From a virus (taxonomy: Duplodnaviria > Heunggongvirae > Uroviricota > Caudoviricetes): a stretch of 64,000 nt of DNA. Every line of letters starts with the position of its first letter. Position 1 is the first letter of the stretch. Under the pieces are notes generated by a model. That model was not told the DNA's origin. It ran no database searches and was given only the letters and a program-made list of their open reading frames with translations. Of the stretch, positions 1,244 through 47,534 are shown piece by piece. The DNA is taken from IMG/VR virus record IMGVR_UViG_3300031994_005355; one strand, given 5' to 3'. The position numbers and the translations under genes are program-made.

Positions 1244-1430
1244 ACGATTTAGAAGATTATAATATATGTATTAAAACTACTAATACAATTATTATATCAG
1301 ATGTAGGTAAGTCATTATGACAGATAGAGAACTAACAGAACAATATGTTAATTATAAATAATAAACGCCGGGTCCCACGGATATCCGCGGAGCTTCAGCT
1401 CCGCGGGAGTGGGAGGCATCAAAGGACAAA

Positions 1431-1838
1431 ATGAACAATTATCATTCACATAATCGACACAAATATCTTCTACAGTTTCATTTGATATTTGTAGTGAAAT
1501 ATCGTAAAGCATTACTAAATATTAAGAAGATTGACGAAGATATTAAACAATTATTATTTGACAGTTGTCAGAAATACAATGTAGAAATTAAGTACATGGA
1601 AACAGATAAAGATCACTGTCACATGATGATCTCTACAGATCCAACAATCAGATTGTCTGACTTAGTCAGGTCTATGAAGTCATTTTCAGCATTTCATATT
1701 TGGAAAAAGCACGAAGGTATCCTTAAGAACTTCTTTTGGAAAGAACGTACATTCTGGACAGATGGCTACTTCATATCCTCTATTGGAGAAGTATCAGAAG
1801 AGACATTAAAGCAATATATAGAAAATCAAGGAAAATAA
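1431..1838 (+). CDS. tnpA: IS200/IS605 Y1 (HuH) transposase TnpA
   Basis: 135 aa; HuH-like HSHNRH motif near N-term, conserved KYRK, C-terminal TDGYFISSIG catalytic-Tyr region typical of IS200/IS608 TnpA. Confidence 0.85.
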   Translation: MNNYHSHNRHKYLLQFHLIFVVKYRKALLNIKKIDEDIKQLLFDSCQKYNVEIKYMETDKDHCHMMISTDPTIRLSDLVRSMKSFSAFHIWKKHEGILKNFFWKERTFWTDGYFISSIGEVSEETLKQYIENQGK

Positions 1839-7850: not shown

Positions 7851-7952
7851 AAATTATAAATCACATAAAACAAGAAACAGCCATGACACATGTTTCTCCT
7901 ATTGTTGTTTTAGCGAATCTGGTTGTGGGTTCTATGCCTTAAACCCTCACCT

Positions 7953-8036
7953 GCAGGTATGGCGTAATTGGTAGGCGCAAAGGACTTAAAATCCTTTGGA
8001 AGTAATTCCGTGCCGGTTCAAGTCCGGCTACCTGTA
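7953..8036 (+). tRNA. tRNA-Leu (anticodon TAA), type II with long variable arm
   Basis: Acceptor gcaggta/tacctgt, D-arm with GG, anticodon stem aagga/tcctt with loop cttaaaa, variable hairpin ggaa-gtaa-ttcc, T-arm gccgg-ttcaagt-ccggc. Confidence 0.75.
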
Positions 8037-8118
8037 TTGCTACATATTTTTACTATATTTATTATATAATAATAGTAAGAAATAAATTATTTTTATATCA
8101 CTGAAAGGAGCTGTTAGA

Positions 8119-10137: not shown

Positions 10138-10425
10138 ATGGTATGGCATAGGATACATGAAGAATTGTATAATCCTAATCTCACTATAGCACAGAATATT
10201 GCTAATGGTTGTGATATACCACCAGAGGATAGCGTACCTGTTCTTGTGCTTGAGTGTGATAAGCCTAAACCTTTTGTAGGAAGATTGCATTATGATGAAG
10301 AAGTGAAAATGTTGAGGTGGTATGAATCATTACATGGTTACCCCTATTGTGACACAAAATTCACTTTATGGACACCTATAGATTTTCCTTCACAAGATGA
10401 ACAGGAAGCTCTATACAAAAATTAA
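10138..10425 (+). CDS. hypothetical protein; stop codon coincides with IS left end
   Basis: ATG 10138 after GAAAGGAG; TAA stop at 10423-10425 is the first 3 nt of the IS end TAAACGCC. Confidence 0.45.
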   Translation: MVWHRIHEELYNPNLTIAQNIANGCDIPPEDSVPVLVLECDKPKPFVGRLHYDEEVKMLRWYESLHGYPYCDTKFTLWTPIDFPSQDEQEALYKN

Positions 10426-10517
10426 ACGCCGGGTCCCGTGGATAGCAGCGGAGCTTTAGCTCCGCTGGAGCGGGAGGCATCAAATGATAAAATAAATCTT
10501 CAAGAAAGGAGGCAATT

Positions 10518-18442: not shown

Positions 18443-19984
18443 ATGTTAATACAGTACGCAATGTTACCTGTAATCCTTATCATTCTTGGAGTTATAATCC
18501 TACTTACTATTTTAGCTTCTGGATATGTCAAGGCTCCACCTGACATGGCTTTTATCATTTCAGGTATGCATAAGAATCCACGTATTCTTATAGGACGAGC
18601 AGGAATAAAAATTCCGTTCTTTGAGAGAGTCGATCGTCTATATCTTGGACAGATGACAGTTGACATTAAAACTGAACAGCCGGTACCTACAAATGATTTT
18701 ATCAATGTAAATGTGGATGCTGTCGCTAAGATCAGAATTATCACGGATACAGAAGTTGAACTAAACGTGAATGGAAACGTAGTAAAGGAAAAAGGAATAC
18801 TCCTCGCATCGAAGAACTTCCTTAATATGTCACCTGATCGTATTGCAAACGAACTTATGGACTCCCTACAGGGTAACATGAGAGAAATCATCGGAACACT
18901 CGACCTACGTTCTATAAACACAGACAGAGATAGTTTCTCAGACCAGGTTATGGAGAAAGCTAGCAAGGACATGGCTAAGCTTGGTATCGAGATAATCTCA
19001 TGTAACATTCAGAACGTTACCGATGAGAATGGTCTAATCAAAGATCTCGGTGCAGACAATACCTCTAGGATTAAGAAGGATGCAGCCATAGCAAAAGCAA
19101 ACGCCGACAAGGAAGTTGAAGTAGCACAGGCTGAAGCAAGTAAAGAAGCTAATGATGCACGTGTCAGTGCTGAAGCTGAAATAGCTCAGAAGAACACAGA
19201 CCTTGAAATCAAGAAAGCTGAACTAAAGAAAATGTCTGAAACAAAGCGTGCAGAAGCAGAAGCAGCTTTTGAGATTCAGAATCAGATACAGCAGAAGTCT
19301 ATAAAGACAGAGACCGTTAATGCAGAGATCGCACAGGCGGAAAGAGAAGCAGAGCTGAAAGAGAGACAGGTTCTTGTGCGTCAGCAGGAGTTAGCTGCTA
19401 CTGTTGAAAGAGAAGCAGATGCTAAGAAGTATGCAGCTGAAAAAGAAGCAGAAGCAAAACTCATACAGACACAGAAAGAAGCAGAGGCAATCCTCTACAA
19501 GCAGATGAAAGAAGCTGAAGCAATCAAGGCACAGGGTGAAGCTGAAGCTGCAGCCATCAGTGCTAAGGGTAAGGCTGAAGCAGATGCAATAGCAGCAAAG
19601 GGTCTGGCGGAAGCTGAAGCAATGGATAAGAAAGCAGAAGCTTACAAGAAGTACAATGGAGCCGCTATGGTTGAGATGTTTATCAATATTATGCCACAGA
19701 TGGCTGCTGAGATCGCTAAGCCGCTGTCCACGATTGATAAGGTAAATATCTATGGAGGAAGTGGAGCTGACAATGGTGTGTCTTCTATGTCTGGGAACCT
19801 TCCACTTGTGATGCAGCAGGTGATGGATACTATGACTGAAGCTACAGGTGTTGACATGCGGGAGATCATCAAGGCAGGAACATATGATGCTAAGGTCAAC
19901 AAGAACGTGAATGTGAATGGTCTTGACAATCTGGTCAAAATTGAAGAGACAAAGGTTGAGAGTCCTGTGGAAGAAAAGAAATAA
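18443..19984 (+). CDS. flotillin-like SPFH/Band-7 protein (FloT/YuaG family) with EA-repeat coiled coil
   Basis: N-terminal TM, PPDMAFIISG, SPFH core, long EA/AEAEA repeat region, C-terminal GAAMVEMFINIMPQMAAEIAKPLSTIDKVNIYGGSG closely matching B. subtilis FloT C-terminus. Confidence 0.85.
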   Translation: MLIQYAMLPVILIILGVIILLTILASGYVKAPPDMAFIISGMHKNPRILIGRAGIKIPFFERVDRLYLGQMTVDIKTEQPVPTNDFINVNVDAVAKIRIITDTEVELNVNGNVVKEKGILLASKNFLNMSPDRIANELMDSLQGNMREIIGTLDLRSINTDRDSFSDQVMEKASKDMAKLGIEIISCNIQNVTDENGLIKDLGADNTSRIKKDAAIAKANADKEVEVAQAEASKEANDARVSAEAEIAQKNTDLEIKKAELKKMSETKRAEAEAAFEIQNQIQQKSIKTETVNAEIAQAEREAELKERQVLVRQQELAATVEREADAKKYAAEKEAEAKLIQTQKEAEAILYKQMKEAEAIKAQGEAEAAAISAKGKAEADAIAAKGLAEAEAMDKKAEAYKKYNGAAMVEMFINIMPQMAAEIAKPLSTIDKVNIYGGSGADNGVSSMSGNLPLVMQQVMDTMTEATGVDMREIIKAGTYDAKVNKNVNVNGLDNLVKIEETKVESPVEEKK

Positions 19985-22274: not shown

Positions 22275-23798
22275 ATGAAAGCATCTGAAAGAATCAAATC
22301 AGATTTAGCTACATACTTTTCAAAGAATGGTATTACAGATGCTGAAAAGAGTATTGTTAAATTAAAAGGACTTCTTCATCAAAGTGTATTAGAGGCTGAA
22401 GGATTGACGCAAGAGAGTGAGTTAGTTAAAGCATGGACAGCTCTACAGTTACAAGAAGGTTTACCTTTTAGGTATGATGTTAAAACCAATAGTATTTATA
22501 ATATTGACACTGTTGTGGAGTTTAAAACTAAACGTTTTTTATACAATATTATAACTACAAGTGTTTTAAATAAAACAGGATGCTTTGCAATAACTGGTTC
22601 GAGAAGAGTGGGTAAAACAATTCTCTTAAAGCAGCTGTATAATGATAATATGTCTTCATCAGAATTCTTAGACTGTTCGGTACGATATCCTATGAACTTC
22701 AATGAATATTATAATACTATTATACAAGCGGGTAAAAAGTATGTATTTATAGATGAAGTTTGTAAGCTTACTGACAATCATTGTGAATTTGTAAGTGCTA
22801 CTAAAGCTGCAGCATCTAAGCTATGCATTATCATAACAGGAAGTACAAGTTTCGTAATTGAAGACATGTGTGAGGATATTGGAAGGGGTGAAATTTACAC
22901 ATTACCGCCATTTATGTATATAGAGACTTTGAGTTGGCAAAAAGATGCCACATTAAATGATGTTATGCAGTATGTATCTAATGAATCATTCATAACATAT
23001 TTGAAAAGTCAGTTCATGTCAAATATGGAATTGATAGATTATATGCGTGGTGTTGTACACGATACCATAGCATCATATAGAAATCATTCGACTCTGGAGG
23101 GAGAGATTTCGTTATCAACTAAAGAGTTAGATAAGTGTTTAATTTACATATCAGTGTGTCAATTATTATACCGTAGGAGTACTGATAATCAGTTTATAGA
23201 TATGCCAAATATAGGTCCTGTAGTAAAAGAGTGTCTTAGAAGTAAAGACATTTTTAGTGTAACAGAGCGTCTTGGTTTGAAGAATAATACAATAGAAACT
23301 GTACTTGACATTTTATGTAGTTGTAATCTTGCTAAGAAAATAAGAGTATTAAAGGATACACATAATACAAGTATTGATGCATTTTTATTTGAGTATCCAT
23401 GGTACGTTAGCTATTGTTTAAGCCCGAGTATACAGGACAGTGAAATTTTATTAGATTTATGGGTTGAATATTATATTCTTATGAAAGCATACTATGTATA
23501 CTCTGATATTGCAAAGTTTAGAACTGGAGCTCAAGAAGAGATTGATGTGTTATACAGAATTAACGGATGGTTAGGATTAGAAATAAAAAATAGACCTGAT
23601 ACAAACTTAACAAGAAAATATAAAGCAAAGCTACAAGAATTATCTAATACATATAGTATTTCAGATATATTTATTTCAAATAAGTCATGTAATGCTAAAA
23701 TAGCAGCAAGTCTGGAACTAGAATACATTAGGTTGCTTAATGAAGGATTAACATATTCAACATTTAATATTCAGGATCTTTTAAATAAATACTTTTGA
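22275..23798 (+). CDS. AAA+ P-loop ATPase (COG1373/DUF4143-like) with shared N-terminal family module
   Basis: Walker A GSRRVGKT, Walker B VFIDEV; N-terminal IKSDLATYF...VKAWTALQ...PFRY homologous to 3814 and 45223 ORFs. Confidence 0.6.
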   Translation: MKASERIKSDLATYFSKNGITDAEKSIVKLKGLLHQSVLEAEGLTQESELVKAWTALQLQEGLPFRYDVKTNSIYNIDTVVEFKTKRFLYNIITTSVLNKTGCFAITGSRRVGKTILLKQLYNDNMSSSEFLDCSVRYPMNFNEYYNTIIQAGKKYVFIDEVCKLTDNHCEFVSATKAAASKLCIIITGSTSFVIEDMCEDIGRGEIYTLPPFMYIETLSWQKDATLNDVMQYVSNESFITYLKSQFMSNMELIDYMRGVVHDTIASYRNHSTLEGEISLSTKELDKCLIYISVCQLLYRRSTDNQFIDMPNIGPVVKECLRSKDIFSVTERLGLKNNTIETVLDILCSCNLAKKIRVLKDTHNTSIDAFLFEYPWYVSYCLSPSIQDSEILLDLWVEYYILMKAYYVYSDIAKFRTGAQEEIDVLYRINGWLGLEIKNRPDTNLTRKYKAKLQELSNTYSISDIFISNKSCNAKIAASLELEYIRLLNEGLTYSTFNIQDLLNKYF

Positions 23799-23830
23799 GT
23801 AGGTGTGATGCCTGCATAAGGAGGTGTTGT

Positions 23831-24250
23831 ATGATAAAAGTTGAACGTTACTCAATTTCTGGGTTCAAGACTCAGAAGCAAATACATCATCTCCAAAATT
23901 TTGTATATCCTCATATGTATGAATGGAAGGAGTTTTATAAAGAGTATCCAGTACTTTACAGGCACTTGCTACTGGAACGCCATAAAAAGCTTCTTCCATT
24001 CTATAAAGAAAATTTTGAGGACTTTACAGAAGGATTGTGGGTATTCATTGCAGGACACAAAAACAGACAATCACTTAATCATCTGAAGCATAAAGTTCCA
24101 TGTTGGACTGCAGAACTCCCGGATGATACGATTGTCTATGACGTGAACTGGGAAGAGCAGTTAAGTCTGAGTGATCCAATCAATGAATGCTTTGGTTGTT
24201 ATGTTCCAAAACGTTCACTAAAACAAATACAAAACATTGAAAGGAAGTGA
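23831..24250 (+). CDS. hypothetical protein
   Basis: ATG 23831 (M13 of track ORF) after AAGGAGGTG. Confidence 0.5.
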   Translation: MIKVERYSISGFKTQKQIHHLQNFVYPHMYEWKEFYKEYPVLYRHLLLERHKKLLPFYKENFEDFTEGLWVFIAGHKNRQSLNHLKHKVPCWTAELPDDTIVYDVNWEEQLSLSDPINECFGCYVPKRSLKQIQNIERK

Positions 24251-24254
24251 GTTA

Positions 24255-24428
24255 ATGAGTGCATCGAATCCAAAGTGTCATGAGAAAGGTTGTCAATGTG
24301 CAACCTGTACAGTAAAGTGCAACATATGTTGCGTACTCAGTAAATGCACGAATGATGAGTGCAGTTCCTCTACAGGTAAAAGAAACTGTCCAGATTATCG
24401 ATATACAAACAATAGAGGAGAACACTAA
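24255..24428 (+). CDS. cysteine-rich small protein (10 Cys in 57 aa)
   Basis: ATG 24255 after GAAAGGAAG; CHEKGCQCATCTVKCNICCVLSKCTNDEC. Confidence 0.4.
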   Translation: MSASNPKCHEKGCQCATCTVKCNICCVLSKCTNDECSSSTGKRNCPDYRYTNNRGEH

Positions 24429-24453
24429 AACATTGAAAGAAGGTGATAACTTT

Positions 24454-24912
24454 ATGAAGATTATTGATTTTGAGAAACATGGTAATGTATTACGGTTTAT
24501 TCTTGGTGACGACACTGATACTTACTATCATGGTGATGATTGGAATAAAGCTCCTTATGAACATAATGCTGGAAGAGTGTATAAACACTATTTCAGATGT
24601 TTTACAGAAATAGCATTACCGTTACGTTATCATATTGCTGAACCTGCAGATGACTGGCATTATAAAGGTAATTCTCCATATTGTAAGAATGACTTCAAAG
24701 AAAGAAAAGTACCTTGCTTAATTGTAAGTAATTTAACAGGTGTTGAGTATTTTGATCTGGTAAATAAAAACTATGCTGAAGAATATCCAGATGCAGATGT
24801 TTTTGGTATTTATTTTGGTGAAGATTATGAAGTCGTTAAGAATAAATTACTTAAGACTTTCGGTGGGTATGAACTCACTTACGAGGGCAATCCTGAGTGG
24901 ATGGATGCTTAA
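24454..24912 (+). CDS. hypothetical protein
   Basis: ATG 24454 (M35 of track ORF) after GAAAGAAGG. Confidence 0.5.
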   Translation: MKIIDFEKHGNVLRFILGDDTDTYYHGDDWNKAPYEHNAGRVYKHYFRCFTEIALPLRYHIAEPADDWHYKGNSPYCKNDFKERKVPCLIVSNLTGVEYFDLVNKNYAEEYPDADVFGIYFGEDYEVVKNKLLKTFGGYELTYEGNPEWMDA

Positions 24913-24923
24913 TGAGGTGATGT

Positions 24924-25361
24924 ATGTATTTATCAAAAGTAGAAACTGATGTTGACGAATTCATTGAAAAGTTCATGACTGGAACTCCAGAACAGCAGGA
25001 GTTCCTACGCTCAAAGTTTCGTGGTGGTTACTGCTACTATTTTGCTCATATGTTACAAACGGCTTTCGAGAGAGGTCTTGTATGTTGGACTTCACCCTTT
25101 GGTCATTTTGTGTGGGTAGATACAGATGTACAATTCAACAAATTTAGTCCGAGATTATACGAACACTATAAGGCATATGATATAGAAGGACGATATAACT
25201 TCTGGGACAATGAAGTAAAATATTTGATACCAGAACAATTTCTTGGCAATCATATTTATGACTTCTTCCATTCGTCTTTAGAAAAGAATGTTAAGCCAGC
25301 AACTGAACGTGACATACTTAATATTATAGATACATATAAAATACTAGTAGGTGTAAAATGA
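24924..25361 (+). CDS. hypothetical protein (paralog of 34663..35259)
   Basis: Shared block GGYCYYFAHMLQTAFERGLVCWTSPFGHFVWVD vs YSWHYAHILQDTFQRGSVCLAYPKNHWVWMD. Confidence 0.5.
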   Translation: MYLSKVETDVDEFIEKFMTGTPEQQEFLRSKFRGGYCYYFAHMLQTAFERGLVCWTSPFGHFVWVDTDVQFNKFSPRLYEHYKAYDIEGRYNFWDNEVKYLIPEQFLGNHIYDFFHSSLEKNVKPATERDILNIIDTYKILVGVK

Positions 25362-25362
25362 T

Positions 25363-25620
25363 ATGAAGAAACCAACTAAAGAACGACGCCAAAACGACTA
25401 CATACGAATGAAAAGAGAATATGAGAAACTTCACAATATTAAGCCTTATGAGTTAGGTGATACAGAGTTCATAATTAAGGCTTCTCATAATGAATACAAA
25501 GAAATAGGTGAATCACTTGGTATAACTTATATTGATTGTCAAGTACCTAACGGTTCATTCTCAATACGTGCAGATATGTCACATATTCTGAAAGGTAAAC
25601 AGTATCTATTTCATGATTGA
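25363..25620 (+). CDS. hypothetical protein
   Basis: ORF track. Confidence 0.4.
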   Translation: MKKPTKERRQNDYIRMKREYEKLHNIKPYELGDTEFIIKASHNEYKEIGESLGITYIDCQVPNGSFSIRADMSHILKGKQYLFHD

Positions 25621-25640
25621 AAGGAAATTGGAGAAAAGCA

Positions 25641-25886
25641 ATGAAAGAGGCTACAATAAAAACTTATGTTACTTATGATGCAGAAGAAGATAAGCTTGAG
25701 GTACTGATTAAAGATAGAACAAAGACATTTGAGATACTTCTATCAAACAAAAATGGCATAACACCAGAAGTTATGAGACTTCAGATAGGAAACTGGATAA
25801 TGAACGAGGTAGAGGAAATAGTAGAAGAAGCGAAAAAGGAACTTCAAGTACTAAATGGTGAAAATACTGATGTTGAAAGGAAGTGA
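25641..25886 (+). CDS. hypothetical protein
   Basis: ATG at M9 of track ORF (track start is TTG) after GGAG. Confidence 0.4.
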   Translation: MKEATIKTYVTYDAEEDKLEVLIKDRTKTFEILLSNKNGITPEVMRLQIGNWIMNEVEEIVEEAKKELQVLNGENTDVERK

Positions 25887-26086
25887 AAGAATTGAGCATT
25901 AACTTTAGTGATAAAATAGAAAGTTATGCTGACACTCGTGCTACTTGTCCGTATGTAGAAAATAAACTTATTGATGATGGTTTTGGTGGACAGACTCTTG
26001 AAACATTTTGCTCTAAGGATGACTGTGAAAATCAGGATGAAATCTATGCTGAAAATGATGGATACAGAAAGGTTTGTAGAGTATGA
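25883..26086 (+). CDS. hypothetical protein (GTG start)
   Basis: ORF track; AAGGAAG RBS. Confidence 0.35.
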   Translation: MKELSINFSDKIESYADTRATCPYVENKLIDDGFGGQTLETFCSKDDCENQDEIYAENDGYRKVCRV

Positions 26087-26331
26087 ATAGAGATGAATTC
26101 TTAAGCAAACTTGATGAAGTAAGTGATACACTTGACTTTGAATATGTTGATGATGTACTATTAAGGTCGCTATCTCCTAAGGGTGAAAAATTCAAAGGGT
26201 TTATGAACCTTGTTATTGCAATAGAGGAATTTGTGGAATGTCAACAAGAAGTGACAAAGTATTTGAGGAATAAAGGAAGTCATATTGCTCTACTTGAAGA
26301 AACTGCTGATGCCTTAATAAGTATAAATTAA
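26083..26331 (+). CDS. hypothetical protein
   Basis: ORF track. Confidence 0.4.
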   Translation: MNRDEFLSKLDEVSDTLDFEYVDDVLLRSLSPKGEKFKGFMNLVIAIEEFVECQQEVTKYLRNKGSHIALLEETADALISIN

Positions 26332-26591
26332 TAGGCAATCGGATAGACTTGCCGTAAAGTGAATGATCTTGATAATTGATAAAGGAGATTGTACACATAA
26401 GTAAAGGAGACAAACTATTATGAAAGAAATAACTGCTACAATGAAATTCACTGTTGATGACGATAATGCAGAAGACTTAAAGAAAGCATTATCACATCAT
26501 TCAGAGTGGTTAATAGACTTTGAAAGTTGGAAAGGCATACACGATTATTCGACAATACAGATCGAAGAACATGACATAGAGGAGAATTAAA

Positions 26592-26984
26592 ATGAGCAGT
26601 ATTGGTATAGCATTAAGCTATGATATGAAAGCGCAGATAGCTAGAGACTTAGCATTAGAAGCACCAACAATAGATGAACAAACAGCATTGGTAGATTCTC
26701 TACCATTAACTGTATTACAAAATTATATTAGTGTAAATATATCTAAAACACACTCTTTATTTGTAGTACAAGGGCATAATATATTAATATCAAATGCAAC
26801 TATTGATATGTTTAAAAAATATGTTGGATATGATTTGGGACAAGAAAATGTAGAACAAGCTACTTATATAGGATATGGCGATACAGACTTGACTGAATGT
26901 ACATTAACAGATACAGAATTATCAAGACGTGCTGAATATTCTTTAAATGTAGAAATAGAAGGTAGACGTAATGAGCTCTTTTAA
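26592..26984 (+). CDS. hypothetical protein (tandem paralog of 27524..27913)
   Basis: MSSIGIALSYDMKAQIARDLALEAPTIDEQTALVD vs MSSISAALSYDIKAQIARDLSLNAPTIDDQTALVD; both end EGRRN(E/G)LF. Confidence 0.5.
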   Translation: MSSIGIALSYDMKAQIARDLALEAPTIDEQTALVDSLPLTVLQNYISVNISKTHSLFVVQGHNILISNATIDMFKKYVGYDLGQENVEQATYIGYGDTDLTECTLTDTELSRRAEYSLNVEIEGRRNELF

Positions 26985-27531
26985 TATTTTAAACTTAAAA
27001 GTAGAGACAACTGCTAAATTAGATATAAATATAAAAGAGTTAAATAAACTATTAGAACAATTTCAAACTACAGATAATTTTATACTAACTGTCAATTTCA
27101 CAAATGATAAGTTTCTTAGTTTATTTTATAACTATAAATATAAACAACTTGCCATGCTATTATTAAACACTAAGGGTAACACATTAGTTGATAATATAGT
27201 TTTAACAGACAAAGAATATAAATTATTTAAAATATCATTACGCATATTACTTTCACGATTAAAACTGAAACAATATGACTATTCAGACACAAGAGGTATA
27301 GTAAAACTCTGGTTAACAAAATTAGGTGAAATCAAAACTAAGCATAAATTAGAGTTGTTATTATTTTATAAAAATAATAACATGAACTTTGATGAACAGT
27401 CACAATTAGATGCTAAAAACATTTCAAAAGGTGTCTGTAAAGAGCATAAAATAAGTAGTACCGATATAATGGAACGTGCTTACTTATATAGAACAATACA
27501 AGGAGATATAAAGGAGGTGTATTATGAGTAG
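26971..27531 (+). CDS. hypothetical protein (between tandem paralogs)
   Basis: ORF track. Confidence 0.45.
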   Translation: MSSFNILNLKVETTAKLDINIKELNKLLEQFQTTDNFILTVNFTNDKFLSLFYNYKYKQLAMLLLNTKGNTLVDNIVLTDKEYKLFKISLRILLSRLKLKQYDYSDTRGIVKLWLTKLGEIKTKHKLELLLFYKNNNMNFDEQSQLDAKNISKGVCKEHKISSTDIMERAYLYRTIQGDIKEVYYE

Positions 27532-27913
27532 TATTAGTGCAGCATTAAGTTATGACATTAAAGCCCAAATAGCTCGTGATTTATCTTTAAATGCACCAAC
27601 TATCGATGATCAAACTGCTTTAGTCGATGCCTTACCTGTTAATATTATAGAGCGTTACTTTTTAGTAAATATATTCAAGTCACATATATTATATGATGTA
27701 CATGGACATAAAATCATTATTCCTAAGAGGCTACTTAATACTGTTAAGGAATTATTTGGTACCCCGTATGATTATGATGATATTGAACATTTTACATATA
27801 TTGCTGCTGATGCTGACTTTGAGAATTGTGAATTCGATGATGACGATTTATCATACAGAGTAGAAGCAGTAATAAATAAGAATATAGAAGGCAGACGTAA
27901 TGGTCTATTTTAA
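27524..27913 (+). CDS. hypothetical protein (tandem paralog of 26592..26984)
   Basis: See 26592 entry. Confidence 0.5.
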   Translation: MSSISAALSYDIKAQIARDLSLNAPTIDDQTALVDALPVNIIERYFLVNIFKSHILYDVHGHKIIIPKRLLNTVKELFGTPYDYDDIEHFTYIAADADFENCEFDDDDLSYRVEAVINKNIEGRRNGLF

Positions 27914-28303
27914 TATTTTAAATTTAAATAAAGGAGGATTAAAATGAGTAATCTTAAAATCAATCTTAGTGAAAAAGAGATCAATTATATTGACAAAGGT
28001 ATAGGTACTTTGACTAAGCAGCATACTGAGTCTGGAAGAAACTATCAGGTAAAGATAAGCTCATTCAAACCACCGATTGTGAATGAAGCTTTTATGGCAA
28101 TCAATATAAGAGAACTGAACTAGGAGAAACATTATGGATTATATTATTATAAAGTGTAGTAAAGAAGATCTTGATAAACTTACTGCGGCTAAGATATCTT
28201 GGTATCCACATGCTTTGACAAAAGATGATGTGCATGTAAAAACTGAAAGTGATTACTTCAAAGCACTAGATCTGCTAGAAAGGAAATAAAAGGAGGACTA
28301 ACT

Positions 28304-28636
28304 ATGAATAACAAACTAGATGCAACACTACAGACTTATAATGACAAAACTGTTCCTGCAACATGGGTTATGGATAATGCTGTTGATTTTCATGTTGGCT
28401 TTGTGCATGGGATTCGTAAGGCTATTGAGGAACTTCGCTCCCAGAAGAAGTATTGGTATGAAGTAACACAGTCAGCTGAGGATGAATCACATGGTTGGAT
28501 ACAGCTGACAGAAGACGAAGCAGCACTAATCAGCAAAGTAACTGATTCTGATAATTGGACAAATACAGAAATGGGATCATGGACTGGATGGTTCGGTATT
28601 GATCTTGAAAGTAAATGCGAAACAAAACCAGAGTGA
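28304..28636 (+). CDS. hypothetical protein
   Basis: ORF track; AAGGAGGA RBS. Confidence 0.45.
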   Translation: MNNKLDATLQTYNDKTVPATWVMDNAVDFHVGFVHGIRKAIEELRSQKKYWYEVTQSAEDESHGWIQLTEDEAALISKVTDSDNWTNTEMGSWTGWFGIDLESKCETKPE

Positions 28637-29644: not shown

Positions 29645-29782
29645 GCTGTGGTGGCGGAAAAGGTAGACGCTTATTCTAATAAGGAAAGTTACGACACATT
29701 GCCTCTTTTATTAGGGGCCTGAAGTATGACCGTTGGAATACTTTTCATGCGAGGTGACAGAAATACAAATCCTCGTCCACAG
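29645..29782 (+). ncRNA. non-canonical tRNA-like RNA X1
   Basis: Canonical tRNA 5-prime half (acceptor gctgtgg, U8, D-arm gcg-gaaaaGGtaga-cgc with A14/G18G19/A21), ~80-nt variable insert, conserved 3-prime module atgcgaggtgacagaaatacaaatcctcgtc (6-bp stem, 16-nt loop) then acceptor complement ccacagt; paralog of X2. Confidence 0.4.
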
Positions 29783-29801
29783 TGATTTTGAAAGGTAAGT
29801 A

Positions 29802-33306: not shown

Positions 33307-33427
33307 ACTTGGGTGACGGAATAGGTAGACGTTTTAAGGTCAAAAGTAAAGTTCCAGTGTTGAGAACGCACAATGAAACTAGGGCTGACTATGCGAGGTG
33401 ACAGAAATGCAAATCCTCGCCCCAAGT
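33307..33427 (+). ncRNA. non-canonical tRNA-like RNA X2 (immediately upstream of tmRNA)
   Basis: acceptor acttggg/cccaagt, D-arm acg-gaataGGtaga-cgt, variable ~60 nt, conserved module atgcgaggtgacagaaatgcaaatcctcgcc; acceptor stems of X1 and X2 differ but both pair (covariation). Confidence 0.4.
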
Positions 33428-33431
33428 ATAA

Positions 33432-33810
33432 GGGCCTGTACTGGTTTCGACGGGGATATAAAAGTACAACTTGCATCGGGTGGTCACCTATAACCAACTT
33501 AAATACAGACGCTAAGCCTGTAGCTATGGCTGCTTAATCTTAAGATTAAGTAGTTCCGACTTGTTCGGCTCTGTTAGAGATGTTGCACACTAACTCAACT
33601 CTACAGTGACTAAAGTAATTACGTGTGATGTCGGCAACTCAACAAGCGTGAGATACAGTCAATCCGATGAAACTGTGATATCGCTAACCCTATCGGTAAT
33701 GGTTTGTTGTATGCCTAGTAACAAGGGTAAATGTTACTGAAATATGAATAAGATGTAGATGGTTGTATGACTAGTATTTTCGGACAGGGGTTCGACTCCC
33801 CTCAGGTCCA
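33432..33810 (+). ncRNA. ssrA: tmRNA (ssrA)
   Basis: 5-prime GGGCCUGUACUGGUUUCGACGGGG matches tmRNA 5-prime consensus; 3-prime T-arm aggggttcgactcccct and acceptor caggtcc pairing with 5-prime gggcctg; internal ACUUAAAUA followed by frame ...D A K P V A M A A TAA (tag-like); terminal CTA instead of CCA. Confidence 0.75.
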
Positions 33811-33826
33811 CTACAAGGAGGAAGCT

Positions 33827-38974: not shown

Positions 38975-39799
38975 ATGAAACACAAACTACTTGTTACACT
39001 TCTGATTGCCGCTATGGTGATCACATTTGCTGGAACTCAGATTTCAGCAGAACCTGATGACACTATAGTCATCACACCACCTGAAATAGTGGCACCACCT
39101 GAACCTGTTATTGGTCAGACTAATGTGATGTACAGTACAATCAATGGTGCATTTGCAATTGATGCAAAATTGATACAGTCATTTATGGCTGCTGGAATTG
39201 ATCCTAATTACTCAGTATCACTTGCAGCATTGTACACAAAATTATCACAGGATCCTACCTATACAGAAGATTTAAAGATTGGCTTCCTGGCTCAAGTATT
39301 AGCAGAGGCCCCAGCTGGAATGTATGAGTTACCTGGAACTCCTGGAACATTGTCATACACGCATTGGCATACTTCCACTATAAATGATAGTCAGCGTATA
39401 TTAGCGGGCACTACTATAACTAAGCCTGAAGATATAAGCATGGGTTTGACAATACCAAGCGATGCTCTTATCGGCTGTGGCATGATGCAATGGACTGCTA
39501 CGCGTCGTACGGTATTGTTAAACTACATGACAATGATTGGCATGAATGAGATGCCTTACATATCAATTTATGATGCAGCAATAGCCGAAGCTAACTACTG
39601 TTGGTTAGAGATGCAGAACCCTTACTATAATCGTATAATAGGTTGGAGTCAAGGTAAAGATGTGTATGGTATAACAAAACTCGTATGCCGTGTTTATATC
39701 GGACAATCAAGTGAGTCAGAACAGGAATATAGATGCGCGTTCATTCCTGTTATACAGGATGCTTTAACTTTATATAATTCTACATTGCTTCAGGGTTGA
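38975..39799 (+). CDS. secreted protein, possibly lytic-transglycosylase-like
   Basis: Signal peptide; weak SLT-like GMMQ / IIGWSQG blocks, speculative. Confidence 0.4.
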   Translation: MKHKLLVTLLIAAMVITFAGTQISAEPDDTIVITPPEIVAPPEPVIGQTNVMYSTINGAFAIDAKLIQSFMAAGIDPNYSVSLAALYTKLSQDPTYTEDLKIGFLAQVLAEAPAGMYELPGTPGTLSYTHWHTSTINDSQRILAGTTITKPEDISMGLTIPSDALIGCGMMQWTATRRTVLLNYMTMIGMNEMPYISIYDAAIAEANYCWLEMQNPYYNRIIGWSQGKDVYGITKLVCRVYIGQSSESEQEYRCAFIPVIQDALTLYNSTLLQG

Positions 39800-39812
39800 G
39801 GAGGACACTATA

Positions 39813-40139
39813 ATGAATAGAATAAAATTTTTACTTTGCACAACTTCATGTGCTTTAATGATAACTAATAATGCCATGGCTGCATCAAAAGATGCTCTTA
39901 TATACAAGCACGCAACTTATAAAGGAGTGTCAGCAGATGAAGTCATTGAACTTATAAAAGCAGATAGCCCTAAAGGAATTGTCACTGTTAGTGATAAGGC
40001 ATTGATCACTGATATGGTTAGTAATATTCCGGAAGAAGACTCACAGGATACTGTGCAGGTTATGCATATTCCTGGAGCAACTTATTGGGTTGTCTACAAT
40101 CCTACTTTGAATGTTGCTTATGCATTCAAGACTAACTAA
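39813..40139 (+). CDS. small secreted protein
   Basis: Signal peptide ending AMAAS. Confidence 0.45.
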   Translation: MNRIKFLLCTTSCALMITNNAMAASKDALIYKHATYKGVSADEVIELIKADSPKGIVTVSDKALITDMVSNIPEEDSQDTVQVMHIPGATYWVVYNPTLNVAYAFKTN

Positions 40140-40169
40140 TCACACTTAATCTCGAAAGGAGAACTAAAA

Positions 40170-40853
40170 ATGAAATTTGAATCTATGCGTGTAAAACTTA
40201 CTTTTATTGACGAACTACTTGGAAGTGCTTCATCAGATCCGGAAGTACATAAGACCTTCATCGCATCAAAAGCACCTGATGCACCTAGCAAGGAAGAAGA
40301 GATTGCTGCACTTGGTGTAGACGAAGTAACACAGAAAGGTATGACAGTGTTCTCACGTGATGAAGAAGGTAACCCTATTCTTTGGGGATATCAGATTCGT
40401 GGTTTCTTTAAGGCTGCTTGTGCTGCTTGTGCAAAGATGAATGACTCTATCTCAGTAAATATTAAAGCCTACAAGAAGATGGTTGATCGTGAGATCTTCG
40501 TTGTACCTCATAAAGAAGATATGGCTGGACGTAAACTTAAGATAAACATATCTGGTGAAATGGGTAACTGCCAGCGTCCCTTGAGAGCACAGACAATGCA
40601 GGGTGAACGTATAGCACTTGCTGATTCAGAGACTATTCCTGCTGGTTCCACCATAGAGTTCGATATTGTTTCTATCGAGTCAGGACTTCATGACCTTGTC
40701 AAGGAGTGGCTTGACTATGGTGCGTTTAATGGTCTCGGTCAGTGGCGTAATTCAGGCAAAGGGGCATTCACCTATGAGATACTTGATGATCAGATGACTA
40801 CTAAGTCTCTCAAGAAAAAGAAGACTAAGAAAGAAGAAAGCACAGAAGAATAA
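40170..40853 (+). CDS. hypothetical protein with Lys-rich tail
   Basis: ORF track; AAGGAGAA RBS. Confidence 0.5.
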   Translation: MKFESMRVKLTFIDELLGSASSDPEVHKTFIASKAPDAPSKEEEIAALGVDEVTQKGMTVFSRDEEGNPILWGYQIRGFFKAACAACAKMNDSISVNIKAYKKMVDREIFVVPHKEDMAGRKLKINISGEMGNCQRPLRAQTMQGERIALADSETIPAGSTIEFDIVSIESGLHDLVKEWLDYGAFNGLGQWRNSGKGAFTYEILDDQMTTKSLKKKKTKKEESTEE

Positions 40854-40859
40854 AACTTC

Positions 40860-41500
40860 TGTACATCGACCGTAAGGTTCAAAGTAAAGGTAGAGTGTGG
40901 TGAGACGCCGTTACGCAGAGGTATGGTTGGGAAGAGAAAAGCTAAGGTATAGTAGAGTTTAGTAAAGCTCAGTCTAGTAATGGTACAGCTCGGTGAGGTG
41001 TAGTTTAGCGATGGCATCGCGAGGTGTGGTCCTGTATGGTAATGGCATTGTATGGTATTGTGATGTAGGGTAAAGTAATGGCATGGTGATGTATTGTTCC
41101 GCTATGGTATTGTGCAGTCCGGTTATGTCATGTAGTGGCAAGGTGCGGTCTTGTATGGTAATGGTGCCGTTCAGTACTGTCCAGTCAGGTTACGTCTAGG
41201 TATAGTGTAGCTGAGTCTCGTGATAGTATAGTGTGGTATCGTGATGGCATAGTCATGTCCAGAGTCGTTACGTAACGGAAAGGTATTGTAAGCAAAGTGA
41301 CGTCATGGTAACGTAGCGCCAGGTCCGGTTATGCCCTGCTTTGGTATGGTTGAGAAAAGAAAAGCTAAGCCGAGGCAAAGTAAAGCAACACACAGCAGTG
41401 GTATTGTGACGCAGTGTTTTGCAGAGGTAATGCCTAGTATCGCTAGGTAATGAAACAATGTGGGAAAGTAGTATGCCATGCTTTCCCACATACAAAAAGA
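40860..41500. repeat. C-poor GT/A-rich noncoding island with >20 irregularly spaced ATGG(T/C)A / TGGTA short repeats and longer degenerate repeats
   Basis: No plus-strand ORF (dense TAG/TAA/TGA); repeated ggtatggttgRgaaRagaaaagctaag (40920, 41342) and tcYtgtatggtaatggYRYYg (41028, 41150); ends with 11-bp perfect hairpin atgtgggaaag...ctttcccacat (41458-41492). Confidence 0.5.
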
Positions 41501-41518
41501 AATGGGAGATTGTAGTAA

Positions 41519-41851
41519 ATGAGTCAAGAACAATTAGTACCCATACCTGTAGCACGTAAGGAGTGCTTGTATGGGAGCTCTCCTAGTTTGGAGAATGTAC
41601 TTGAACTATATGACTTCTTTCGTCATCAAGTTTTAATTACTGCTAAAAAGATAGCAAAGAAGTCTGAAGAGATAAAAGGAGATATTCCTAACTCTCAAAA
41701 ACAGACATTGAATATGCAGTTAAAGTTTCTAAAATTCTATGTCAAAAAGAAGGCTAAGATCATGCATCAGTGTCATAGAAGTGTGAATGATATCTATCTA
41801 TCTGAAAGTGATAAGCCATTCAAATTGTTTCAAGATTTAACTACTTCATGA
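41519..41851 (+). CDS. hypothetical protein
   Basis: ORF track. Confidence 0.45.
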   Translation: MSQEQLVPIPVARKECLYGSSPSLENVLELYDFFRHQVLITAKKIAKKSEEIKGDIPNSQKQTLNMQLKFLKFYVKKKAKIMHQCHRSVNDIYLSESDKPFKLFQDLTTS

Positions 41852-43645: not shown

Positions 43646-43717
43646 ATGCCCCGTAGTCAAGAGGTAAGGCATCGGACTTTGACTCCGTCATTCGCGGGTT
43701 CGAATCCCGCCGGGGTA
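43646..43717 (+). tRNA. tRNA-Gln (anticodon TTG)
   Basis: Acceptor tgccccg/cggggta, anticodon loop ctttgac, T-arm gcggg-ttcgaat-cccgc; resembles bacterial tRNA-Gln. Confidence 0.8.
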
Positions 43718-43737
43718 GTTTATTAAAGGATTAAATC

Positions 43738-45198
43738 ATGACTACATTAAATATTGAGGAACTGCTTTATTCAAATAGTATATGGGAATCAGTACTGGGT
43801 GAAATGTGGGTACGTAAAGTAGAACCTGAAACGGTTGCAAGAATTACTATGTTAGATTATCGCTACGATATTTGTAATAAACTTATTACAGGTAGTTATA
43901 AATTTAATCCACCTAAATTAGTACATATACCGAAAGATGATGGAACACTGCGTGATCTTCTTATTTTAGAGGACCAAGATAGGATAGTCATGCAGGTTCT
44001 ATATAAAATATATTATAGTTTATACAAAAGCAATATTCATTCATCATGTATGAGTTATCAGACTGGAGTATCTGTAAAAGATATTGCTGTACAAATACGT
44101 AACGGACTTAAATCAGAGTTACAGCGTTATAAACTTGATATATCAAAATATTTCGACTCTGTGCCTCAAGATGTAATAAACAGAGAATTGAATAATATGG
44201 ATCCTACATCTGGACCAACAGTATCTCTTTATAATTTCTATAATGATAACCGTATCATTGTGCATGGTAAAGAAGTTGAGCATTTCAAATCATTATGTCA
44301 AGGTTGTTCATTTAGTGCATTACTAGCAAATGTTATACTCTATGATATTGATGAATATTTATCAGCGCACGCTGATATGTATATCCGTTATTCTGACGAT
44401 ATGTACATTCAAGATGCTAATGTTAATGCATTAATTGTTAAAGCAAAAGAGATGCTTGCTCATAAAGGTCTCATACTAAAAGACTCTAAGGTTCAGCAAC
44501 TTGCAACCTCATTTGATTTTGTTGGTGTACATATTTCACCTACTAGACTATCCATAGGTAAAAAAGGATTAAGAAATATATGCAATAATATCAAACAAAA
44601 GTTGAAGAATAAAACTAGTCTTGAAAGAGCAATACGTGCAGTGCAGAGTTATTTATTATCTTCTGATACTAATGGTTATTCAGCACTAAGTTATTGGTTT
44701 AATATTTGTACAAATGTGGATGACATTATAAAGTTGGACAGAATGATTAAAGATGAAATAAGATATCACTTCACCAACAAACATAATATTGTACATAATA
44801 TACATCAGTTACCTAATCAAGCTTTCAAAGAAAGTGGTTGGGTGTCACTTGAATATTTATACAGATTGTACAAACACGATAAGAATGCATATAAAGCATA
44901 TAGTGCTTACATTCTGCATAAGTATATGCTTACACCTAGTAAGATACGTTCGTATATGACAATTGATAAGATATCTAGTGATTTACTCAAATTTTGGGAA
45001 ACAGCAAAATATGCTAAGCATAGTCCATTTATAACGTATGAAAAACCACTAGATGTTGATTTCAATATCTCATCGTATGAAAGTAATACTGCACGAGAAT
45101 ATATGTGTAACATCATTAAAAATGCAACAATTGATTTTGGTGAGGATAAGTTCATAAAAGTAACTGATGAGTTATTTTTATTTAAAGATTGGTTTTGA
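43738..45198 (+). CDS. reverse transcriptase (group II intron/retron/Abi-UG lineage) with thumb-like C-terminal extension
   Basis: RT1-2 LVHIPKDDGTLRDLLILEDQDRIVMQVL, RT3 YKLDISKYFDSV, RT4 QGCSFSALLANVIL, RT5 YIRYSDDMYI, RT6 GLILKDSKV, RT7 FDFVGVHI; ~190 aa after RT7. Confidence 0.85.
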   Translation: MTTLNIEELLYSNSIWESVLGEMWVRKVEPETVARITMLDYRYDICNKLITGSYKFNPPKLVHIPKDDGTLRDLLILEDQDRIVMQVLYKIYYSLYKSNIHSSCMSYQTGVSVKDIAVQIRNGLKSELQRYKLDISKYFDSVPQDVINRELNNMDPTSGPTVSLYNFYNDNRIIVHGKEVEHFKSLCQGCSFSALLANVILYDIDEYLSAHADMYIRYSDDMYIQDANVNALIVKAKEMLAHKGLILKDSKVQQLATSFDFVGVHISPTRLSIGKKGLRNICNNIKQKLKNKTSLERAIRAVQSYLLSSDTNGYSALSYWFNICTNVDDIIKLDRMIKDEIRYHFTNKHNIVHNIHQLPNQAFKESGWVSLEYLYRLYKHDKNAYKAYSAYILHKYMLTPSKIRSYMTIDKISSDLLKFWETAKYAKHSPFITYEKPLDVDFNISSYESNTAREYMCNIIKNATIDFGEDKFIKVTDELFLFKDWF

Positions 45199-47241: not shown

Positions 47242-47368
47242 ATAACTAAAGCTTTGTCCTAGGCTACACTAACTATGTTTCTTAATCCACAATACAAATC
47301 ACTACGTGATTCGTATTGATCTTAATCGTATTGTAGAAATAGGACAGTTAGAAACCAGGTTAGTGTAT

Positions 47369-47450
47369 GCACCGCTGATGGAATTGGCAGACATGCAAGA
47401 TTTAGGTTCTTGTGCCGGAAGGCGTGTGGGTTCAAGTCCCACGTGGTGCA
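47369..47450 (+). tRNA. tRNA-Leu (anticodon TAG), type II
   Basis: Acceptor gcaccgc/gtggtgc, anticodon stem caaga/tcttg loop tttaggt, variable hairpin gcc-ggaa-ggc, T-arm gtggg-ttcaagt-cccac. Confidence 0.75.
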
Positions 47451-47534
47451 TCGACATTGGTGTGTACACCTCCAGTATAATCCTGTTAACTAATCTTGCA
47501 TCACAAGTACACACCAATGTCATAAAGGAGCATT

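What the first reader, a model, noticed from the sequence alone, without database searches (positions are those of the whole stretch)
40860..41500. 640-bp C-poor noncoding island densely packed with ATGG(T/C)A short repeats, ending in an 11-bp perfect hairpin
Between genes 40170-40853 and 41519-41851 no frame is open on the + strand, which is riddled with GTAG, GTAA and GTGA. The only ORFs there are implausible minus-strand ones. Base composition is strongly skewed: G+T+A rich with very few C on the top strand. The motif ATGGTA / ATGGCA / TGGTAT occurs more than 20 times at 10-25 bp spacing. Two longer imperfect repeats are also present (ggtatggttgRgaaRagaaaagctaag at 40920 and 41342; tcYtgtatggtaatgg at 41028 and 41150). 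Such iterated short sites are typical of replication origins, partition centromeres or packaging (pac) sites bound by an oligomerising protein. A strand this C-poor is unlikely to be a GC-paired structured RNA. The island sits about 2 kb upstream of the RT module.
Basis: seen in the sequence. Interest (0 to 1): 0.6.

Follow-up and report, generated by a model that had tools for sequence, protein, structure and literature searches.

The report
Phage VIPR guide-RNA repeat tract
The "island" is not a replication or packaging site: it is a run of about 110 five-base repeats lying next to a small CRISPR-like (RAMP) protein gene, matching the phage VIPR RNA-guided DNA-silencing system first described in 2026 preprints, here with an unusual long, punctuated layout.

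Summary
The island (40854-41518) is real and noncoding, but the pattern is not ATGGTA iterons. It is a strand-specific lattice: G followed by a pyrimidine every 5 nt, 111 units from 40884 to 41452. The chain score is 89; the shuffle maximum is 17.8 and the best elsewhere in the window is 7.9.

All 99 related loci checked carry the same kind of tract next to the homologous gene, on the gene's strand in 98. The tract sequence is not conserved between them.

This matches VIPR (bioRxiv 10.64898/2026.04.26.720920 and .720927). In VIPR, Vipr protomers polymerise one per pentanucleotide repeat on a vrRNA and read DNA through the variable bases.

This clade differs from the validated type II system. 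The consensus is YNNNG rather than YNNGG. The tract is continuous with no internal tails. A 6-nt CAANGG unit recurs every 26 or 31 nt, which I infer corresponds to one filament turn.

No natural target was found. The nearby RT (UG27 class) is unrelated. Verdict: a new member of a very recently described kind, possibly a new array variant.

The parts
40170..40853 (+). vipr gene: 227-aa single-RRM RAMP (Cas7-like) protein with alpha-bundle insertion, beta-hairpin thumb and C-terminal G-loop GLGQWRNSGKGAF
40884..41452 (+). vrRNA-type repeat tract: 111 units of YNNNG (92 x 5 nt) punctuated by 18 six-nt units (YNNNGG, here mostly ..ATGG); mean period 5.16 nt
   Evidence: Score 89 against a shuffle maximum of 17.8. 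Unique in the window. RNA fold z = -1.1. No Rfam match.
40920..40946 (+). first copy of a 27-nt internal repeat (GGTATGGTTGGGAAGAGAAAAGCTAAG), in phase with the pentamer lattice
   Evidence: family D6. Its role is unknown; it may be a duplicated guide segment or a processing or boundary element.
41343..41369 (+). second copy of the 27-nt internal repeat (93% identical)
   Evidence: family D6.
41458..41491 (+). terminal hairpin closing the tract (13-bp stem, 8-nt loop by RNAfold; no U-run after it)
   Evidence: Comparable strong hairpins follow downstream tracts in L002, L015 (with a T-run), L016 and L021. Probably a 3' end, terminator or protective cap.
40854..41518 (+). whole intergenic island containing the tract, flanked by vipr and an unrelated 110-aa ORF
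   Evidence: An independent assembly (SRR9006654) is identical over 3,684 bases including the island.

Best explanation
The island is the guide-RNA (vrRNA) repeat tract of a VIPR (Viral Interference Programmable Repeat) locus, and gene 40170-40853 is its Vipr RAMP protein.

Likely mechanism. Steps marked 'inferred' rest on the type II experiments in the two 2026 preprints, not on anything tested in this clade.
1. The tract is transcribed on the + strand, probably with or just after vipr, and ends at the 41458-41491 hairpin (inferred).
2. Vipr protomers polymerise along the RNA, one per 5-nt unit, forming a right-handed helical filament. The G-loop Trp and Arg (W192, R193, equivalent to W178 and R179 of SUSP1 Vipr) hold the conserved G and the following pyrimidine (inferred).
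3. The variable bases between anchors are displayed to base-pair discontinuously with double-stranded DNA of a competing phage, satellite or prophage. This represses its transcription (inferred).

Differences in this clade, shown directly by the sequence:
- Only G-Y is conserved (YNNNG), not GGY. The two SUSP1 residues reported to read the first G are substituted here: D177 to Q191 (local hhalign G-loop alignment) and H17 to S/T19 (only a low-confidence global alignment and by eye).
- The tract is one uninterrupted run of about 110 units, with no internal tails.
- A semi-conserved 6-nt unit (C-A-A-N-G-G) recurs every 5-6 units, that is every 26 or 31 nt. I infer this corresponds to one turn of the Vipr filament, reported as 5 subunits per turn when DNA-bound and 6 when free. 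It could be a once-per-turn register adjustment or a boundary between short guides.
For: 1. The lattice is overwhelmingly non-random and unique in the window.
3. Conserved linkage without sequence conservation:
   - All 19 IMG/VR loci with a homologue have a G period-5.2 tract directly beside the gene, upstream, downstream or both.
   - So do 72 of 80 bacterial-genome loci at score >= 30. The other 8 score 10-28, against a control maximum of 7.2.
   - The tract is on the gene's strand in 98 of 99 loci.
   - blastn of the island finds nothing in 50,697 phage records.
4. The published description of VIPR fits: a phage-encoded minimal RAMP plus flanking intergenic pentanucleotide repeats, with YNNNG listed as an alternative consensus.
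5. The validated SUSP1 locus, read directly, shows the same kind of G-rich pentamer tracts beside a 195-aa protein.
6. AF2 models of the window protein and of a SUSP1-type Vipr share secondary-structure order. They retrieve the same six BFVD entries. These include A0A8S5R426, which is 56% identical to the window protein and is hit by the SUSP1-type model at E = 1.2e-8.
7. The G-loop motif G-x-G-[DQ]-W-R...G-x-F is shared. W178 and R179 are the residues reported to contact G2 and Y3.
8. The tract is unstructured as RNA (z = -1.1), as expected for a protein-coated guide.
9. There is no CRISPR array and no other cas gene in the window.
Against: - Sequence homology to validated Vipr is weak. hhalign gives E = 0.0018 and probability 15%, over the G-loop only.
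- GGY is not conserved; the position before the anchor G is G in only 33% of units.
- There are no discrete ~100-nt vrRNAs with conserved 3' tails as in type II, and 111 units far exceeds the reported maximum of about 30 repeats.
- No conserved accessory (vap) gene was found.
- No natural target was found under NNx, NNN or NNNx decoding, although those searches had little power.
- There is no expression, RNP or targeting evidence for this clade.
- I could not see the preprint's figures or data files, so I cannot say which of its seven types this is.
Confidence: 0.85

Rival explanations
1. The RAMP protein coats this long periodic RNA, but the complex is not a DNA-targeting guide. It could be a decoy that soaks up host type III, IV or VII Cas7-family proteins (an RNA anti-CRISPR-like sponge), or a structural or regulatory ribonucleoprotein filament.
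For: - The tract is several times longer than any reported vrRNA: 111 units against about 30 or fewer.
- It has no internal tails.
- No target was found under any decoding rule tried.
- The once-per-turn punctuation is conserved in 93 arrays, which looks architectural.
Against: - The variable positions are highly diverse between even fairly close relatives. This is typical of guides under arms-race selection and not needed for a scaffold or decoy.
- The residues that hold G and Y in the validated system are conserved.
- The preprint reports guide function in types II, III and V and lists YNNNG tracts among vrRNAs.
- My target searches were too limited to count as a real negative.
Confidence: 0.08
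2. The island is a DNA-level cis element: iterons of a replication origin, a partition centromere or a pac site bound by an oligomerising DNA-binding protein.
For: - The short repeats are dense and the region is noncoding.
- The mean period of 5.16-5.2 is close to half a B-DNA helical turn.
Against: - The pattern is strand-specific and follows the orientation of the RAMP gene in 98 of 99 loci.
- It travels with that gene to unrelated genomic contexts, with no other conserved neighbour.
- The partner protein has an RNA-binding RAMP fold.
- Cumulative GC skew climbs without a change of direction from about 39100 to 41800; there is no switch at the island.
- No replication, partition or terminase gene is linked.
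Confidence: 0.03
3. The island is a compositional artefact, a decayed gene or a simple-sequence expansion with no function.
For: Individual units are degenerate, and Tandem Repeats Finder reports only two short arrays.
Against: - The score is 89 against a shuffle maximum of 17.8.
- The period is 5, not 3.
- The same lattice, with different sequence, lies beside the homologous gene in all 99 loci examined.
- The sequence is identical in an independent sample.
Confidence: 0.01

Closest known systems
VIPR type II (Escherichia phage SUSP1 and Pseudomonas fulva prophage; bioRxiv 10.64898/2026.04.26.720920 and 10.64898/2026.04.26.720927)
   Same: - Phage-encoded ~20-25 kDa single-RRM RAMP with alpha-bundle, thumb and a G-x-G-[DQ]-W-R G-loop.
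- Co-oriented intergenic tracts of G-rich pentanucleotide repeats beside the gene.
- No CRISPR array and no other cas genes.
- The repeat tract is unstructured.
   Different: - The consensus here is YNNNG (G-Y conserved), not YNNGG.
- SUSP1 has a strict 5-nt lattice with autocorrelation lags 5, 10, 15... 30. Here the mean period is 5.16, with a CAANGG unit every 26 or 31 nt.
- SUSP1 has separate tracts in which regex runs of 7-13 units were found (the preprint gives 9-16 repeats per vrRNA), each with a leader and a tail hairpin or pseudoknot. Here there is one continuous run of 111 units with only a terminal hairpin.
- No vap neighbour here.
- Protein similarity is detectable only at the G-loop and at fold level.
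Class 1 CRISPR Cas7 backbone on crRNA (type III Csm3/Cmr4, type VII Cas7, type IV Csf2)
   Different: - Cas7 uses a 6-nt (5+1) period, and spacers have no internal sequence periodicity.
- It needs a repeat-spacer array plus Cas5, Cas6, Cas10 or Cas8 partners.
- None of these is present here.
TRAP (trp RNA-binding attenuation protein) binding 11 (G/U)AG triplets at 5-nt spacing. Recalled from general knowledge, not tested.
   Same: An oligomeric protein reads a short conserved motif repeated about every 5 nt in an otherwise variable, unstructured RNA.
   Different: TRAP is a closed 11-mer ring of an unrelated fold. It has 11 sites, not about 110, it regulates attenuation, and it has no guide function.
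RNA anti-CRISPRs (Racr; solitary CRISPR-repeat mimics in phages). Recalled from general knowledge, not tested.
   Same: A phage-encoded noncoding RNA that engages Cas7-family proteins.
   Different: Racrs mimic host CRISPR repeats and hijack host Cas proteins. Here the phage encodes its own RAMP, and the RNA has a pentamer lattice rather than a CRISPR repeat.

Membership tests
VIPR system | Vipr protein: a small stand-alone RAMP with one RRM core, a glycine-rich loop, a thumb and an alpha-helical bundle | tested here: met
VIPR system | Relatedness to an experimentally validated Vipr (SUSP1) | tested here: inconclusive
   Sequence profiles give hhalign E = 0.0018 and probability 15%, over 44 G-loop columns only. 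Structure is supportive: the same secondary-structure order, and the two models retrieve the same six BFVD entries, including a 56%-identical relative of the window protein at E = 1.2e-8. No direct pairwise structural superposition or phylogeny was possible.
VIPR system | Intergenic tract of tandem pentanucleotide repeats beside vipr, with conserved GGY or a related consensus (NNNGG, YNNNG, NNNNG) | tested here: met
   111 units, with G at 108 anchors and Y next at 100. This is YNNNG, one of the alternatives the preprint lists. Strict GGY is not met: the preceding base is G in 37 of 111 units. The linkage holds in 99 of 99 related loci.
VIPR system | Discrete vrRNAs (9-16 repeats, up to about 30) each capped by a conserved 3' tail. 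Described for type II; other array architectures exist. | tested here: not met
   The chain is continuous over 569 nt with no tail-like interruptions. There is one terminal hairpin only. No hammerhead or other Rfam element is present. The preprint mentions 'staggered arrays' (fig. S18), which I could not inspect.
VIPR system | Minimal non-CRISPR locus: no CRISPR array and no other cas genes | tested here: met
   There are no repeat-spacer arrays in the 64 kb. Neighbouring proteins have no cas, Pfam or PADLOC hits.
VIPR system | Accessory vap gene next to vipr (typical, not universal) | tested here: not met
   None of 11 neighbouring window proteins has a homologue in the 21 related loci (tblastn, E <= 1e-3).
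VIPR system | Viral or proviral genomic context | tested here: met
   All genes in the window lie on one strand, with a tmRNA, tRNAs and a lysozyme-like gene. Homologues come from IMG/VR and human-faecal phage records. The family's BFVD relative is from 'Siphoviridae sp.'.
VIPR system | vrRNA is expressed and co-purifies with Vipr; the filament has one protomer per repeat | not testable with these tools
   Needs small-RNA sequencing, pull-down or cryo-EM.
VIPR system | Variable positions match natural DNA targets by a gapped (1-nt skip) code | tested here: inconclusive
   - blastn of NNN-decoded arrays against phages gave chance-level hits only.
- Five exact-pattern scans of IMG/VR gave 0 hits or 4 non-extending hits.
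- Spaced k-mer tests of 8 decoding rules against about 0.67 Mb of local loci showed no enrichment over shuffled units.
- Power was low.
Class 1 CRISPR-Cas effector (type III/VII-like) | CRISPR repeat-spacer array and a 6-nt (5+1) guide periodicity with Cas5, Cas6 or large-subunit partners | tested here: not met
   There is no array and there are no partner genes. The period is 5.16, not 6.
Replication-origin iterons / partition centromere / pac site | DNA repeats of a protein-binding site, linked replication, partition or terminase genes, and (for an origin) a GC-skew switch and an AT-rich unwinding element | tested here: not met
   - The lattice is strand-specific and co-oriented with a RAMP gene.
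- Cumulative GC skew does not change direction at the island.
- The island is GC-richer (about 46%) than its flanks.
- No linked gene of these classes was found.
Known large structured phage RNAs (ROOL, GOLLD, OLE and others in Rfam) | Match to the covariance model; stable conserved secondary structure | tested here: not met
   No Rfam match at gathering score or at E <= 1. Fold z = -1.1.

The most novel reading that the evidence does not exclude
This very large gut and rumen phage clade may use a VIPR array architecture that has not been described. The clade has more than 7,700 proteins, and 198 bacterial species genomes carry a copy.

The architecture would be a single long transcript of 40-210 YNNNG units, with three variable positions per unit rather than two. 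A semi-conserved CAANGG unit would punctuate it once per turn of the Vipr filament (26 or 31 nt, for 5 or 6 protomers).

That would mean one of two things. Either very long filaments cover hundreds of base pairs of target, or there is a 'one turn = one word' processing and decoding scheme with a pairing rule different from the published 1-nt skip.
Probability: 0.3. Interest if true: 0.6.

Novelty: new member of a known kind. Interest (0 to 1): 0.5.

Why it matters
VIPR was reported only in April-June 2026, as a minimal, PAM-free, programmable RNA-guided DNA-binding system and a proposed ancestor of CRISPR RAMPs.

This window shows that a sequence-only reader can pick such a locus out. The clade it belongs to is abundant in gut and rumen phages and prophages of Clostridia and Bacteroidales.

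The clade's features bear on three open questions about VIPR: how arrays are processed, how long filaments can get, and what the pairing code is outside type II. Those features are loss of the first conserved G together with substitution of the residues reported to read it, tracts of 100 or more units, and a conserved once-per-turn 6-nt punctuation.

If the punctuation is not already covered by the preprint's 'staggered arrays', it is a directly testable structural prediction.

Tried and rejected
- **Retron, group II intron or DGR RNA linked to the RT.** Rejected. The RT is UG27 class. It is not found near the RAMP gene in the 21 related loci searched. No TR/VR-like repeat lies in 41500-64000, and Rfam finds no intron or retron RNA.
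- **Origin, partition or pac site.** Rejected on strand specificity, the RAMP partner and the absence of a skew switch.
- **Half-helical-turn DNA signal (5.2 bp).** Considered because of the non-integer period. The 5/6-nt unit structure and the reported filament periodicity explain it better.
- **Target search.** No result under any rule tried.
  - The NNN-decoded arrays of the window and six loci, run by blastn against 50,697 phage records, gave only chance hits with E 0.3-0.9.
  - IMG/VR exact scans for one or two 'words' of the window array under NNN, NNx and NNNx gave 0 hits or 4 hits. The 4 did not extend into flanking units.
  - A local mismatch-tolerant scan and a spaced k-mer scan of 93 arrays under 8 rules showed no excess over shuffled controls. 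The only excess was trivial self-matches at period 5.
  - One heavier scan timed out.
- **Codon-like composition of the variable positions.** N2N3 against codon positions 1-2 gives r = 0.84, but this is driven largely by A-richness and stop triplets are not depleted. Not used as evidence.
- **afdb50 fold search.** Unavailable, so I could not check directly for the UniProt entries the preprint names as seeds.
- **Neighbouring 110-aa and 108-aa ORFs as vap candidates.** Not conserved even in a locus whose Vipr is 76% identical.

Full report
**1. What is in the sequence**

Between the stop of gene 40170-40853 and the start of ORF 41519-41851 there is no + strand ORF of 40 aa or more.

Two parts of the description need correcting.
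- The island is not C-poor. C is about 14.4% against 14.9% for the window. It is G-enriched (31% vs 19%).
- The ATGGTA, ATGGCA and TGGTAT motifs occur at 13 distinct sites, not more than 20.

The real signal is a lattice.
- GT, and G generally, autocorrelates at lags 5, 10/11, 15/16, 21 and 26. Writing the region in rows of 26 puts the G's in columns.
- A dynamic-programming chain that allows 5- or 6-nt steps finds 111 consecutive units from 40884 to 41452. G is at 108 anchors and a pyrimidine follows at 100. There are 92 five-nt steps and 18 six-nt steps.
- The chain score is 89.1. For 300 shuffles the mean is 8.4 and the maximum 17.8. The best chain elsewhere in the 64 kb, on either strand, scores 7.9.

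**2. The neighbouring gene**

The 227-aa product of 40170-40853 has no Pfam, PHROG or PADLOC hit. It belongs to a family with more than 7,700 metagenomic members.
- A family profile hits PDB chains of Csm4 (E 0.003), type VII Cas7 (E 0.007-0.02) and Csm3, all through the C-terminal glycine-rich loop GLGQWRNSGKGAF.
- The gene therefore encodes a stand-alone Cas7-like RAMP. The window has no CRISPR array and no other cas gene.

**3. Comparative evidence**

- Nineteen IMG/VR loci encode homologues at 43-61% identity. Every one has a G period-5.2 tract directly beside the gene: downstream, upstream or both.
- A scan of one genome per bacterial species found 198 loci, mostly gut and rumen Clostridia with some Bacteroidales. 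Of the 80 fetched, 72 have a flanking chain score of 30 or more. The other 8 score 10-28. The maximum in control windows is 7.2.
- The tract is on the gene's strand in 98 of 99 loci.
- The tract sequence is not conserved. blastn of the island against phage records finds nothing. A locus whose protein is 76% identical shares only one ~70-nt stretch. No other neighbouring gene is conserved.
- So the conserved unit is a RAMP gene plus a co-oriented pentamer lattice with variable content.

**4. Identification**

[quoted passage not shown] It describes VIPR systems as follows.
- A phage-encoded minimal RAMP (Vipr) is flanked by intergenic vrRNAs made of 9-16 YNNGG repeats plus a 3' tail.
- The NN bases pair with double-stranded DNA, skipping every third target base.
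- The complex represses competing phages.
- There are seven types. Alternative repeat consensus sequences (NNNGG, YNNNG, NNNNG) and alternative array layouts are reported.

The companion cryo-EM preprint, 10.64898/2026.04.26.720927, adds structural detail.
- One protomer binds per repeat.
- The filament is a right-handed helix with six subunits per turn when free and five when DNA-bound, with about 25 nt of vrRNA per turn.
- G1 is read by H17 and D177, G2 by R138 and W178, and Y3 by a pocket that includes R179.
- The longest natural vrRNAs have about 30 repeats.

**5. Membership tests**

I read the validated SUSP1 locus directly (KT454805.2). A 195-aa protein is flanked by G-rich pentamer tracts on its own strand, each followed by a tail hairpin. 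The lattice is strictly 5 nt, with autocorrelation lags 5, 10... 30.

Profile-profile comparison of the SUSP1 family with the window family aligns only the G-loop (E 0.0018, probability 15%). In that alignment D177 maps to Q191, W178 to W192 and R179 to R193.

An AF2 model of a SUSP1-type Vipr (pLDDT 94) has the same order of secondary-structure elements as the window model. It retrieves the same six BFVD entries. These include A0A8S5R426, which is 56% identical to the window protein and is annotated 'Cas system-associated RAMP', at E = 1.2e-8.

I therefore file the locus under VIPR on three grounds: fold, context and repeat type. Two caveats apply. Sequence-level homology to validated Vipr is weak, as the preprint says is usual for RAMPs. 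I also could not see which of the seven types this is.

**6. How this clade differs**

(a) Only G-Y is conserved. The base before the anchor G is G in 33% of units. This fits substitution of the two residues reported to read G1, while the residues reported to contact G2 and Y3 (W and R) are nearly invariant. D177 to Q191 rests on the local G-loop alignment. H17 to S/T19 rests only on a low-confidence global alignment and by-eye comparison. This link is an inference.

(b) The tract is continuous, with 111 units here and 39-214 in relatives. There are no internal tails, no ribozymes and no other Rfam element. A terminal hairpin follows the tract here and in several relatives.

(c) The 6-nt units are not random slips.
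- Across 15 arrays they read C(.72) A(.53) A(.64) N G(.84) G(.98).
- They are separated by 3-6 five-nt units in 211 of 276 cases. A geometric distribution predicts 83.
- An independent set of 78 arrays reproduces this: 857 of 1,325 cases against 400 expected. The median mean period is 5.163, with IQR 5.143-5.186.
- The resulting 26- or 31-nt superperiod equals 5 or 6 units. I infer that this corresponds to one turn of the reported Vipr filament.
- Whether it is a register adjustment in a very long filament, or a boundary between short guides, is unknown. The preprint's 'staggered arrays' (fig. S18) might be the same thing.

**7. What I could not show**

No natural target was found.
- NNN-decoded arrays gave only chance blastn hits in phage records.
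- Five exact-pattern scans of IMG/VR under NNx, NNN and NNNx gave either nothing or four hits that did not extend.
- Spaced k-mer tests of eight decoding rules against the loci in hand showed no excess over shuffled units.

These searches covered a tiny part of the possible space. They do not count against guide function, but the targeting step remains inferred from type II.

As RNA, the tract is no more structured than shuffles (z = -1.1). That fits a protein-coated guide.

**8. Rivals**

- A DNA origin, centromere or pac site is contradicted by the strand specificity, the RAMP partner, the lack of a skew switch and the lack of linked genes.
- A link to the RT is coincidental. The RT is UG27 class, it is absent from the 21 related loci searched, and no DGR-type repeats are present in 41500-64000.
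- A non-guide role for the RNP, as a decoy or scaffold, cannot be excluded for this clade. I give it about 8%.

**9. Verdict**

It is best explained as the vrRNA tract of a VIPR locus, a kind of system published only months ago. That makes this a new member of a known kind. It has an array layout (long, tail-less, punctuated once per 26 or 31 nt, YNNNG) that may be a new variant.

Noticed in passing
window 43738-45198 (+): The 'RT module' is a UG27-class reverse transcriptase of the defence-associated RT group (PADLOC RT_UG27, E = 3.5e-65; Pfam RVT_1). It is carried by a phage, preceded by tRNA-Gln (43647-43718) and followed by a 672-aa ORF with no family hit. No template/variable repeat pair lies in 41500-64000, and it is not linked to the RAMP gene in the 21 related loci searched.
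   Followed up: partly
window 33432-33813 (+): A phage-encoded tmRNA (Rfam 110.8 bits; ARAGORN tag peptide AKPVAMAA*). A 37-nt motif immediately upstream (33391-33427) is repeated at 29747-29783 with 89% identity. It may be a shared promoter or processing signal.
   Followed up: no
window 1338-1435 and 10399-10496 (+): A 98-nt repeat (80% identical) contains a GC-rich hairpin (CCGCGGAGCTTCAGCTCCGCGG with flanking pairing) just upstream of two genes. It could be a structured regulatory element or small RNA. Rfam has no match at gathering score.
   Followed up: no
window 7952-8037, 43647-43718, 47368-47452 (+): Three tRNA genes: Leu-TAA, Gln-TTG and Leu-TAG. The exact Vipr protein also occurs on a 293,727-bp contig, so the window may come from a jumbo phage.
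   Followed up: no
L052 and L053 (contig JAGCAN010000001.1, positions 70844-76467 and 22951-28574): One 86-kb Oscillospiraceae MAG contig carries two copies of the vipr homologue about 48 kb apart. In one of the 99 loci examined (not identified further), the strongest tract is on the opposite strand (score 118).
   Followed up: no
L020 4613-5077: Within one relative's array, two ~65-nt segments are diverged duplicates (..TAAAG CCATG AACGA ATTTG CGACGG.. and ..TAAAG CCACG AATGG ATTTG CGACGG..). This suggests arrays grow by internal duplication followed by divergence of the variable positions. The 27-nt repeat in the window (40920 and 41343) may be the same process.
   Followed up: partly
window 19442-19623 (+): A 33-nt tandem repeat (about 2.5-3.4 copies, 72-80% matches) lies inside ORF 18443-19984. 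It is an in-frame coding repeat rich in Glu, Ala and Lys codons.
   Followed up: no
BFVD entries A7WKN2 (Betalipothrixvirus) and A0A0A0P750 (Los Azufres archaeal virus 2): Both the window RAMP model and the SUSP1-type Vipr model hit uncharacterised proteins of archaeal viruses at E about 1e-3. This fits the preprint's statement that VIPR-like RAMPs occur in archaeal viruses.
   Followed up: no
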